64,000 bases of DNA from Gekko japonicus (Eukaryota): the NCBI RefSeq assembly GCF_001447785.1, contig NW_015163111.1, positions 1 to 64,000 of the forward strand, read 5' to 3'. This document shows, piece by piece, positions 50,801 to 53,800 of this stretch. Positions within the stretch are counted from its first letter, which is position 1. Each line of letters begins with the position of its first letter. A program made the position numbers.

Positions 50801-53800
50801 CCCGGGCCAAGCTGTCCCTTCGCTCTCACCCGAGATGAGCTGCTCGCCGAGGTCGGGGCTGAACCGGGGAGGCCGGTAGCGGCGGCGGCTGTCGGGAACG
50901 CGCGTTGTCCTCCTCCCCCCTCCCTGTCGGTGGAGTGAGAGACCCAGCGGGCAAGCGCAGCCCTCCTCCTCCCTCCACCAGCATCGCCCCCACCGCCTCG
51001 GCCTAGTCAGGGGCATCGGCGGCTCTTCCTCCGGGAACAGATTGCGTGCTTGCTGCCTCAGGCCCCCCCACCTTTCCCGCCCGCCGGCCGTATCAGGACG
51101 CTGAAGGGCCGGGGACACTGCGGCCCGGGCGGGGGAGGCGACGCGACAGAGGAGAGGAAGCCGCGAAGAAGAGCGAGGCCCCGCAGAAAGGCAAGGTGGA
51201 CTGGGGGCGAGGGAAAGAACGCGCCGCCCCTCCTGCAGTCCGCAAACTCCAACCCCCGTTCCAAGAGCGTTCCCCGCGCATGCGCAGGGGACGCTCTTTT
51301 TTATTTTGGCAAATTTAAGGACCCCCAGGATATTTTTCACACTTTTAAGATTTTTGTGCACATGTGGGGACCGCCCCACGTGAGCACAAACCTCTCCCTC
51401 CCCCCCCAGGAGCCCCCGATGTCCGGATTTAAGGATCCGCACAGAGGGGGCCACTTCACTATTAGATATATAGATTCCAAATTTTAGTCAGTTCAGTTGC
51501 CCGTTGACTGGAGTTGTTAAGATACCCAAGTTCCACAATGATAGATTTGACTAGAATTGTGTTGGGACGTAGCTTTGAGAGGTGGCATTTGCCTAATGCA
51601 ACCTGAATGGTTTTCTCTGCATGCTGGAACAAGGAAATGTTCCATTTTTCTCAGTTGCCTTTAGAAAGCTCAGATGGCGTGTTCCCTGCTGACTGTCTTT
51701 AGAAGGTACCTGGGACCAGTGTTCCCTCTAAGCTGAGTTAGTGTGAACTAGCTCAGTGTTTTTTACCCTCTGGCTCACACATTTTTGTCTTAGCTCAGGA
51801 AGGATGGCTCCAGAGCAAGCTAATTTATGCAGTAGGGGCAAATCGCCTGCTCACAACTTTAATGCCGGTAGCTCATAAAGTAGAATTTTTGCCCACAGGA
51901 CTCCACAGCTTAGAGGGAGCATTGCCTGGGACCATAAGTCAAAGCACAGGGCCGCCAATCACAAGCCAGACAATCAAGGGGGAAGGAAGCCCTACTGTAC
52001 TGAGAGCACACCATCATGAGCTATACTTTTGCACCAAGTGCAGGGACTACCCTTTGTTTTTTGCCTGTGTGTTCATGTTTTTTCCATCACTGAATGGTTT
52101 GCCTTTTTCATATTTTGATGATGAAAATTGGTATTTCCCCCTCTGTTTTCAGCACATGCAGTTAACAAAAAAGGGGCCATGGAACAAAAAGCCATCATTT
52201 TGAGGGGGTCCATTTAGAAACATTGTTATATTCACAGCCCCAGTCAAAGTGCTGTGCACTTACACAAAATAAATCACATTCTGACTCACTGAAAGAAAAA
52301 GCCAACAGTACAATTTACAATCTAGCATATAATGAGAAGAATATAGTTGAATAACTTACTTGGCCACTGAACTTCATAATTATAGCCCAGGTTTTCTGGT
52401 GCCGTAACAAACATCTCATCATTGGTCATAGGGGGCCAGAACGGGACCATGTTGTATCGTCTGTTGTGTCCAATGGGGGCATTCTCTAGGGGGTATATGG
52501 AGGTATCTACTTTGGGGGGAAAAAGATTCCATTTCAAAAGGCTGTCATAGGTAAGAATGTTAAAAATATATCCTAGATCCTCAGACTTTGAGCCTTCAGC
52601 TTTAAGCAATGAGGCAATAATTCCTACAAAGAATAACTTTCCTTCTGCATATGTATGTTTTGTAGTTGCAGATGTTAAGGACAAAAGGAGGCTCAGGATC
52701 AAATTCTCTGACCATTTTGTGTGTTGAGCAGACGTAGGCTCAGGAGCAAGAATTGCAACTATAATCCATGCAGTTAAAAAGGCAATAGTTATGATTTCAC
52801 TGACTTGGAGATCCTGAACTAGAAGAAGCAGGGAAAAATGAGCACAGATGGTATCAGTCTAGAAAGATGCAGTTAAAAGGCTCCATCCATTCAACTACTC
52901 AACTTCCCAACTGCAACAAGAGCAATATGGATGGTTGGATCATAGTGGAGATAACATAAATGAGGACCAGTGAAATTACTGATTTCTTTTTGCATGGCCT
53001 TTTAATATTTCCCCACTACCTAAAACAGCAACAAATGTCTTATCTTCAGATAGCCTTTTGGTTTCCTCAGTAAGCAATCTCCGCCTGTCATCTACAGGAA
53101 GACCACCAAGGAGAGTCTGCCAGCATGTTCTCAAATCATGAGGATGCAGGTGAGGTCCACGGGCCTCAGTGTTTCCCCATGGAAAATAAATGCACATCCA
53201 TGCTGACCACTTCCCTATTGTTTTTCACTGCAGGAGAAGATCACTAAAGGCAGGCAACTTGTTACTTGCTACCATTACCGTTCTTCTTATCAAGGAAACC
53301 CAGATCATCTTCTAGAGATCCTCAGAATACAGTTTGAAAAGCCACATTCTTCAAGCGTGTGCTGAAGCTTATGTGTCTTTCCCATTCCATTTTTAAAATC
53401 TGCATTAGCCCAGTTCCACAGAGAGACTGGCTGCCTCCTGCCGCACCATCTGCTCTTGTTTTGTGTTTGTTAGGGGAACATGACGTGAACTTATGTGATT
53501 TTCCTGCAGTAACAAACAACTCTCGGGACCTGCCAAAACTGGCACTTGCATGGCTCTGAAAATCCATGGCTGTATCCCTTTTTCAGGGCTGCCTTCAAAG
53601 GTGTGGCAATTCTGTGCTGTTTTGCCTTTTTTTGGTCTTTTTGAAAGGATCAATAGAAAAGGGGTCTTGTCTACATTTCTGAATTTATGAAAAAGGAACA
53701 GAGACTTCTCTTGCTGTGATCAGATGACATGGTTAAACACCCCTCAGTCTTGTGATCCCTTTCTGTTACTTATTTGGCATCAACAACTAATACAATAAGT

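What the first reader, a model, noticed from the sequence alone, without database searches (positions are those of the whole stretch)
50830..51460. Orphan CpG-island promoter in TYRP1 intron 7 with a candidate first exon in frame with exon 8
Seen: a CpG island of about 1.1 kb sits in the last intron, with an NRF1-type palindrome (51276-51286), an E-box and GC boxes at its minus-strand upstream end. An ATG at 51016 is followed 187 nt later by the donor CGG|GTGAGA (50830), which is phase 1 like the exon 8 acceptor. Inference: a transcript from here could encode MPLTRPRRWGRCWW...GEQLIS-A-RTLQV...SVV, about 130 aa. This would be a non-catalytic product keeping the TM helix, dileucine signal and PDZ ligand. 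It could instead drive a non-coding 3'UTR RNA, an antisense lncRNA or a distal LURAP1L isoform. The ATG context is weak (-3 is C), and phase match happens one time in three by chance.
Basis: partly seen in the sequence, partly recalled or inferred. Interest (0 to 1): 0.75.

Follow-up and report, generated by a model that had tools for sequence, protein, structure and literature searches.

The report
Orphan CpG island in TYRP1 intron
A real, single-copy CpG island with a textbook NRF1 site lies in the last intron of a non-human vertebrate TYRP1 gene and may be an unannotated promoter, but the proposed in-frame mini-protein is what chance alone would often produce.

Summary
The window carries the 3' half of TYRP1 on the minus strand. 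Intron 7 (49509-52359) holds the largest CpG island of the 64 kb: 50151-51450, GC 0.63, CpG o/e 0.80, 102 CpG, against a window o/e of 0.30. It matches nothing else in the window. It equals the LURAP1L promoter island in size and CpG count. It carries the window's only exact NRF1 site, inside a 36-nt palindrome. The island and the NRF1 site exceed chance. The coding idea does not. In 405 of 1000 dinucleotide shuffles of the island, an ATG-to-donor open frame in phase 1 appears. The donor is one of three comparable ones, and four other acceptor-like sites lie before exon 8. Three protein searches and Pfam found no relative of the open frames. Best reading: an orphan intragenic CpG island, probably unmethylated in the germline, acting as a TATA-less NRF1/SP1-type promoter for a largely non-coding transcript. 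Its direction is unresolved. Methylation, transcription start sites, splice junctions, genome-wide copy number and cross-species conservation could not be tested here. A transposon or other recent origin therefore stays open. This is an ordinary kind of element, of modest interest.

The parts
50151..51450 (.). CpG island in TYRP1 intron 7 (dense core about 50300-51300)
   Evidence: 1300 nt, GC 0.632, o/e 0.796, 102 CpG; core CpG o/e 0.84, TpG 0.96, CpA 0.92, against 0.28, 1.24 and 1.26 in the rest of the window; no similarity to the rest of the window.
51275..51286 (.). Exact NRF1-type palindromic site TGCGCATGCGCG
   Evidence: the only exact match to YGCGCAYGCGCR in 64 kb. The consensus is recalled.
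51263..51298 (.). 36-nt imperfect palindrome (16 of 18 pairs) centred on the NRF1 site
   Evidence: I3; one of 2 such palindromes in the window. DNA hairpin of -15.4 kcal/mol, z -5.05, 0 of 200 shuffles fold as well.
51377..51382 (.). E-box CACGTG, preceded by T on the minus strand
   Evidence: About 0.4 such sites are expected in the island by my composition estimate, so this is not significant.
50650..51376 (.). Five GC boxes (GGGCGG/CCGCCC) starting at 50650, 51077, 51127, 51224 and 51371
50830..51016 (-).
   Evidence: Chance level. No homologues.
50824..50832 (-). Candidate donor CGG|GTGAGA (7 of 9 matches to MAG|GTRAGT)
51066..51074 (-). Competing donor AAG|GTGGGG upstream of the ATG (7 of 9)
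50234..50242 (-). Competing donor CAG|GTGCTT (7 of 9)
50531..50548 (-). Acceptor-like site TCGTCTCTCCCTTCCAG|A. It has 13 of 14 pyrimidines, richer than the exon 8 tract at 12 of 14. Seven nt downstream is an ATG (50524) in good context (G at -3, G at +4) that opens an 83-codon frame.
   Evidence: No homologues.
49303..49508 (-). TYRP1 exon 8 coding part (TM helix, QPLLTD, SVV, stop)
52360..52509 (-). TYRP1 exon 7

Best explanation
The element is a genuine intragenic ('orphan') CpG island. It is about 1.0-1.3 kb long and fills nearly half of TYRP1's last intron. Its CpGs have escaped the methylation-driven decay that has stripped the rest of the locus. The most likely cause is that the island stays unmethylated in the germline because it is bound and used as a TATA-less, NRF1/SP1-type promoter. 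Such promoters usually fire in both directions.

A sense transcript would start near the NRF1 site at about 51.2-51.3 kb. It would use one of three comparable donors and join either an internal acceptor or exon 8, ending at the TYRP1 poly(A) sites. Its product is most likely non-coding, or carries only short unconserved frames. The in-frame 62-codon ORF is a coincidence of GC-rich sequence.

Shown here: the island, its uniqueness in the window, the NRF1 site, and the splice-site and ORF inventory. Inferred: lack of methylation, promoter activity, direction, and the non-coding nature of the product.
For: - Island statistics exceed the classical thresholds, and it is the largest island in the window.
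- The core shows no CpG-decay signature: CpG/TpG/CpA o/e of 0.84/0.96/0.92, against 0.28/1.24/1.26 elsewhere.
- Its size and CpG count (1300 nt, 102 CpG) match the bona fide LURAP1L promoter island in the same window (1450 nt, 99 CpG). The 6 of 12 CpG-rich loci that are repeated in the window are 250-550 nt with 11-38 CpG.
- Intron 7 as a whole has no significant match elsewhere in the window; the single hit is 15 nt at E 0.51.
- It holds the window's unique exact NRF1 site, at the island's edge.
- There is no canonical poly(A) hexamer on the minus strand from 51299 down to the TYRP1 stop. The first ones come after the stop, at 48421, 47968, 47607 and 47021.
- Donor-like sites exist in both directions.
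- Against coding.
- Literature: about half of mammalian CGIs are orphans, and many show transcription initiation (PMC2944787, abstract read). A quarter of CGIs are intragenic and some are active (PMC8873577, abstract read).
Against: - No methylation, TSS or RNA data could be consulted.
- In this very window 6 of 12 CpG-rich loci are repeated, SINE-like pieces, so CpG richness alone does not prove protection from methylation here.
- GC skew gives no direction. It is +0.097 on the minus strand, reached by 10.6% of 630 windows, and the LURAP1L island shows -0.072.
- Genome-wide copy number and conservation are untested.
- The GC3 excess in the candidate frame (nominal 5%) runs weakly against 'non-coding'.
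Confidence: 0.47

Rival explanations
1. The island is a CpG-rich segment of recent origin with no promoter role. It could be a low-copy transposon piece, a solo LTR or another insertion, or a product of GC-biased gene conversion. It would be methylated and simply not yet decayed.
For: - 6 of 12 CpG-rich loci in the window are repeated elements that keep a high CpG o/e despite 72-88% identity between copies.
- A hAT-like MITE with an intact 8-bp target duplication lies 270 nt away, so the intron has taken recent insertions.
- A TG...CA span, 50112-51495, flanked by the 6-nt repeat GTTGCC, brackets the island.
- In a relative with 90% identical exon 8, the intron sequence further than about 60 nt upstream of exon 8 looks unrelated and AT-rich (P0001).
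- PMC3583005 warns about computational CGIs in such genomes.
Against: - There is no second copy in 64 kb.
- There are no terminal inverted repeats of >=9 nt between the shoulders.
- The TG...CA plus 6-nt repeat pattern occurs in 35 of 115 control zone pairs.
- There is no transposon protein domain in 4 of 4 island ORFs tested.
- There is no poly(A) tail.
- An exact NRF1 site is expected about 0.07 times or less by chance.
- The island resembles the real promoter island, not the repeated pieces, in size.
Confidence: 0.27
2. The island is regulatory but not a promoter. It could be an enhancer-type or Polycomb-type orphan CpG island, or an element that affects 3'-end processing or termination of TYRP1 itself.
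For: - It sits in the last intron, close to the 3' end.
- Reviews list enhancer roles and effects on host mRNA length for intragenic CGIs (PMC8873577, abstract and section titles; PMC7470969, listing abstract only).
- An E-box with a 5' T (a melanocyte MITF-type core, recalled) lies at 51377.
Against: - One E-box is within chance.
- No CTCF-like core was found in 49501-52400 with a recalled pattern (0 matches).
- Nothing in the sequence separates this reading from a promoter.
Confidence: 0.17
3. One reading: a sense transcript starts in the island, translation begins at ATG 51016, and the 50830 donor joins exon 8. The result is a functional protein of about 130 aa that keeps the TM helix, the dileucine signal and the SVV end.
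For: - ATG, donor and phase are as stated.
- ATG 51016 is the first ATG for any start between 51280 and 51017 (ATG list).
- There is no poly(A) hexamer before exon 8.
- GC3 is 0.84 against 0.65 and 0.67, nominal 5%.
Against: - The pattern is at chance level: 405 of 1000 shuffles.
- The Kozak context is weak.
- The next ATG, 50984, has G at -3 and is out of frame.
- The donor at 51072 would remove the ATG, and four other acceptor-like sites lie before exon 8.
- The composition is Arg/Pro/Gly-rich, with 14 R in 62 residues.
- 0 hits among proteins of 57-184 aa.
- 0 hits among 1.84 billion representatives for the 262-aa frame.
- All 4 short database proteins that carry exon 8 are read-throughs of the intron's pyrimidine tract. 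None has this N-terminus.
Confidence: 0.04

Closest known systems
Orphan / intragenic CpG-island promoters of mammals (Illingworth et al. 2010, PMC2944787; Cain et al. 2022, PMC8873577; abstracts read)
   Same: It is CpG-dense and GC-rich, about 1 kb long, and lies inside a gene away from the annotated start. It is TATA-less, with GC boxes and an NRF1 site.
   Different: The host is a non-mammalian genome, where sequence-defined islands predict the unmethylated state less well (PMC3583005). No methylation, H3K4me3 or TSS evidence is available here.
The LURAP1L promoter island in the same window (19501-20950)
   Same: Similar length and CpG count: 1450 nt with 99 CpG, against 1300 nt with 102 CpG. 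Neither has a repeat elsewhere in the window.
   Different: The LURAP1L island overlaps a recognisable first coding exon (ORF 19578-20159; weak Pfam LURAP match, E 0.048, below the cut-off). The intron-7 island overlaps no recognisable coding sequence.
CpG-rich SINE/TE fragments of this genome (for example 8001-8350, 43601-44150, 53851-54100)
   Same: They pass the same CpG-island thresholds.
   Different: They are 250-550 nt long and recur in the window at 72-88% identity. The intron-7 island is 1.3 kb and unique in the window.
TYRP1 mRNA acting as a non-coding miRNA sponge in melanoma (PMC7248034, abstract seen in listing)
   Same: It gives a precedent for an RNA-level role of the TYRP1 3' part. 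A sense transcript from the island would carry that part.
   Different: That is a human, full-length mRNA. Nothing here links the island to miRNA binding.

Membership tests
CpG island (sequence definition; Gardiner-Garden & Frommer / Takai & Jones thresholds, recalled) | Length >= 200 nt (strict: >= 500 nt) | tested here: met
   1300 nt
CpG island (sequence definition) | GC >= 0.50 (strict: 0.55) and CpG o/e >= 0.60 (strict: 0.65) | tested here: met
   GC 0.632, o/e 0.796; core o/e 0.84
Non-methylated island | Unmethylated CpGs in germline or soma | not testable with these tools
   No methylation data. Only the indirect lack of TpG/CpA excess.
Orphan CGI promoter | Lies away from any known gene start | tested here: met
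   Inside intron 7. It is 643 nt from exon 8 and 910 nt from exon 7, by the gene model built. No public annotation was available.
Orphan CGI promoter | Transcription initiation (CAGE, 5' ends, H3K4me3) | not testable with these tools
   None available
Orphan CGI promoter | Promoter-type factor sites | tested here: met
   Exact NRF1 site, expected <= 0.07; 5 GC boxes; no TATA box inside the CpG core
Alternative coding first exon | Open frame from an ATG to a donor whose phase fits the next exon | tested here: inconclusive
   Present, but also found in 405 of 1000 shuffles
Alternative coding first exon | Encoded peptide conserved or known | tested here: not met
   0 hits; no Pfam family
Alternative coding first exon | Spliced reads across the junction | not testable with these tools
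   No RNA data
Transposable element | More than one copy | tested here: inconclusive
   No copy in the other 61 kb of the window. The genome as a whole is not searchable here.
Transposable element | Terminal repeats and target-site duplication | tested here: inconclusive
   No inverted 9-mers between the shoulders. One TG...CA span with a 6-nt flanking repeat, a pattern seen in 35 of 115 controls.
Transposable element | Transposon protein domains | tested here: not met
   0 Pfam families in 4 island ORFs
Structured RNA gene (Rfam) | Match at a family's gathering score | tested here: not met
   0 matches in the window. Inside intron 7 there are only 7 weak matches, all at 49604-49703 and far below gathering. 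0 tRNAs.

The most novel reading that the evidence does not exclude
The island is a constitutive (NRF1-driven) sense promoter nested in a pigment-cell gene. It releases the last exon of TYRP1 on its own. The product would be either a roughly 130-aa membrane-anchored tail that competes for the adaptor and PDZ partners of full-length TYRP1, or a 3'UTR-bearing regulatory RNA. Either would be made in tissues where TYRP1 itself is silent.
Probability: 0.05. Interest if true: 0.6.

Novelty: new member of a known kind. Interest (0 to 1): 0.2.

Why it matters
If active, the island would be an unannotated transcription unit inside a classic pigmentation gene. It could explain exon-8 or 3'UTR reads in non-pigment tissues, which might otherwise be taken for TYRP1 expression. 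It would also be a test case for how well sequence-defined CpG islands predict promoters in non-mammalian genomes. If it proves methylated or multi-copy, it shows only that CpG-rich insertions mimic promoter islands in this genome. Either way, intragenic CpG islands are common, and one more is no surprise to a specialist.

Tried and rejected
- GC skew as a pointer to direction. The minus-strand skew of the island is +0.097, reached by 10.6% of 630 windows. The real LURAP1L island shows -0.072. It is uninformative.
- Solo-LTR test. One TG...CA span with a 6-nt flanking repeat, but 35 of 115 control zone pairs show the same pattern.
- Terminal inverted or direct 9-mers between the island's shoulders. 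Only a C-run was found.
- A CTCF-like core, using a recalled pattern: 0 matches in 49501-52400.
- Rfam at gathering on the whole window: 0 matches. Rfam by E-value on 49500-52400: 7 weak miRNA-model hits, all on one G-rich/C-rich hairpin outside the island.
- tRNA scan: 0.
- Tandem repeats: only short low-score arrays.
- Pfam on four island ORFs: nothing.
- Protein searches with the candidate exon, with the 262-aa frame and with the 141-aa frame that holds the better-context ATG 50524: nothing.
- Short proteins carrying exon 8: all 4 of 4 are intron read-throughs.
- Literature searches for a TYRP1 intron-7 island, an intragenic TYRP1 promoter or a lizard TYRP1 isoform (listings only): none of the listed titles or abstract openings reports one.
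The two were searched separately, so the joined product remains unexamined.
- Supplements of papers were not consulted.
- No vertebrate DNA collection was available.

Full report
**Context**

The window has no N and no soft-masking. On the minus strand it carries the 3' half of TYRP1. The ORF pieces at 58128-58394 and 54400-54579 match the Pfam tyrosinase domain; the first is below the cut-off, the second has E 1.8e-11. The exon 6 and exon 5 peptides match the solved human TYRP1 chains, named 5,6-dihydroxyindole-2-carboxylic acid oxidase, at E 1.1e-33 and 2.3e-30. Other tyrosinases lie far behind.

Exon 5 is 52 of 57 identical to the human chain. The gene is therefore TYRP1, and I do not take the window for human. 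I did not determine the taxon.

The gene model here is:
- Exon 7: 52509-52360, donor CCAA|GTAAGT.
- Intron 7: 52359-49509.
- Exon 8: starts at 49508, ends in SVV, stop at 49305-49303.

Downstream on the same strand, an ORF at 19578-20159 with a weak LURAP match (E 0.048, below the cut-off) sits in its own CpG island. This fits the TYRP1-LURAP1L neighbourhood that I recall from human.

**The observation**

- The island passes the classical thresholds over 50151-51450: 1300 nt, GC 0.632, o/e 0.796, 102 CpG. The window as a whole has o/e 0.303.
- The CpG-dense core runs from about 51300 to 50300.
- In the core, CpG, TpG and CpA o/e are 0.84, 0.96 and 0.92. In the rest of the window they are 0.28, 1.24 and 1.26. 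The core therefore lacks the decay signature of methylated DNA.
- It is the largest island of the window.

**Is it a repeat?**

All of intron 7 compared with the rest of the window gives one 15-nt hit at E 0.51. I merged the CpG-rich segments into 12 loci. Six of them have further copies in the window; they are 250-550 nt with 11-38 CpG, and most are SINE-like. The two large loci have none: the LURAP1L promoter island (1450 nt, 99 CpG) and this one (1300 nt, 102 CpG).

Further tests gave no transposon signal.
- The four longest island ORFs hold no Pfam domain.
- No terminal inverted 9-mers link the shoulders.
- One TG...CA span, 50112-51495, is flanked by a 6-nt repeat. The same pattern occurs in 35 of 115 control zone pairs.

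Within 64 kb the island therefore behaves like the real promoter island and not like the repeated pieces. A low-copy element would not be expected to recur in 64 kb, however, and the genome could not be searched.

**Promoter-like content**

TGCGCATGCGCG at 51275-51286 is the only exact match to the NRF1 consensus (recalled) in the window. With one mismatch allowed there are two sites, against 0.07 expected.

The site is the centre of a 36-nt palindrome, 51263-51298, with 16 of 18 pairs. It is one of only two such palindromes in the window. As single-stranded DNA it folds at -15.4 kcal/mol, z -5.05. I have no explanation for the extension beyond the 12-nt site.

Five GC boxes and one E-box are present, and there is no TATA box inside the core. 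By my composition estimate, the boxes and the E-box are not beyond chance.

The NRF1 site sits at the AT-rich edge of the island, and the CpG-rich kilobase extends from it in the minus (TYRP1 sense) direction. That leans weakly toward sense transcription. GC skew does not help: it is +0.097, reached by 10.6% of 630 windows, and the LURAP1L island shows -0.072. Donor-like sites exist in both directions, three on the minus strand and two on the plus strand at >=7 of 9. There is no canonical poly(A) hexamer on the minus strand between 51299 and the TYRP1 stop. On the plus strand the first one after 51000 is at 52268.

**The coding model**

- The candidate donor matches 7 of 9 consensus positions and is one of three such donors on that strand. 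One of the others, with last exon base 51072, lies upstream of the ATG and would remove it.
- Between the donor and exon 8 there are four other acceptor-like sites. The one at 50531 has a richer pyrimidine tract than exon 8 (13 against 12 of 14). It is followed by an ATG in good context that opens an 83-codon frame.
- In 1000 dinucleotide-preserving shuffles of the island, 405 contain at least one ATG-to-donor open frame in phase 1. In 197 of them the exon part is >=100 nt.
- Stops are scarce in all six frames of the core, at 1 to 9 per 333 codons.
- The peptide is Arg/Pro/Gly-rich, with 14 R in 62 residues.

The homology searches found nothing.
- The candidate exon found no protein of 57-184 aa.
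- The whole 262-aa stop-to-stop frame found none of 1.84 billion representatives.
- The adjoining 141-aa frame found none of 77-247 aa.
- Exon 8, searched on its own among proteins of 48-154 aa, found four. All four are read-throughs of the intron's pyrimidine tract into exon 8, and none has a GC-rich N-terminus.

The one hint for coding is a GC3 of 0.84 against 0.65 and 0.67. That excess is reached by 5.0% of 1632 equal windows in the core.

The joined product was not built, searched or folded, so nothing is known about it as a whole.

**Comparison with what is known**

- About half of mammalian CpG islands are orphans, and many show initiation (PMC2944787, abstract).
- A quarter of islands are intragenic and can shape host transcripts (PMC8873577, abstract).
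- In cold-blooded vertebrates, sequence-defined islands predict unmethylated DNA poorly. The paper also states that lizard non-methylated islands have mammal-like CpG o/e but lower GC (PMC3583005, abstract and passages).
- Three literature searches (listings only) turned up no report of a TYRP1 intron-7 island or an intragenic TYRP1 promoter.
- TYRP1 mRNA has a proposed non-coding sponge role in melanoma (PMC7248034, abstract in listing). That is the only precedent for an RNA-level role of the gene's 3' part.

**Verdict**

The island and the NRF1 site are real and non-random. The in-frame first exon is at chance level and has no support from homology.

The best reading (0.47) is an orphan intragenic CpG-island promoter whose product is mainly non-coding. 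A recent or transposon origin without function (0.27) and a non-promoter regulatory role (0.17) remain open. The functional mini-TYRP1 protein is unlikely (0.04).

Methylation, start sites, junction reads, genome-wide copy number and cross-species conservation were all out of reach and would decide the matter. This is a new member of a known kind, and the interest is low to modest.

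Noticed in passing
window 52748-52837 (minus strand), intron 6; ORF 52325-52858: A partial copy of the start of exon 8 (pyrimidine tract, acceptor and TM-helix region) lies in intron 6. It is 78% identical over 91 nt, E 1e-14. Its acceptor, with first base 52818, fits the phase of the exon 6 donor as I read it. 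The frame then stays open for about 103 codons straight into exon 7. Only 2 of 5000 mononucleotide shuffles of the 347 intron bases are stop-free in that frame. Pfam finds nothing. It could be a relic of an exon duplication or an alternative 5'-extended exon 7. This is unexplained.
   Followed up: partly
window 51717-51924, flanks 51709-51716 and 51925-51932: A 208-nt MITE-like element with 19-nt terminal inverted repeats (I4). An exact 8-bp target duplication, GTCCCAGG, flanks it on both sides (read), which is hAT-like by recall. It lies 270 nt upstream (minus sense) of the island and has no other copy in the window.
   Followed up: partly
window 49604-49703: A G-rich arm facing a C-rich arm forms a hairpin about 100-190 nt upstream of the exon 8 acceptor. 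It gives 7 weak hits to miRNA and mirtron models, at 23-30 bits against gathering scores of 47-105. The fold z-scores are -2.25 and -1.31. It is probably low-complexity sequence. The corresponding intron stretch in the closest database ORF (P0001) is AT-rich.
   Followed up: partly
window 51263-51298: The NRF1 site is embedded in a 36-nt near-perfect palindrome. That is far longer than the 12-nt site needs, and it is one of only 2 such palindromes in 64 kb. Origin unknown.
   Followed up: partly
window 8001-8350, 31570-31908, 41247-41579, 53811-54129, 44036-44144: A CpG-rich SINE-like family has at least four copies at 73-88% identity. Together with other repeats it accounts for 6 of the 12 CpG-island-like loci in the window. 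This is a warning for sequence-only island calls in this genome.
   Followed up: partly
window 1351-1850: A further 500-nt CpG-rich segment (o/e 0.79, 31 CpG) has no repeat in the window. It carries the only one-mismatch NRF1-like site, at 1541-1552. Not examined.
   Followed up: no
window 12690-14885 (minus) and 61700-62531 (minus): Two LINE-type reverse-transcriptase ORFs. One is a 732-aa open frame. The other is a fragment in a TYRP1 intron with an RVT_1 match at E 2.3e-8.
   Followed up: no
window 59051-59750: A CpG-rich 700-nt segment built of local direct and inverted repeats (D5, I8, I12), inside a TYRP1 intron. Not examined.
   Followed up: no
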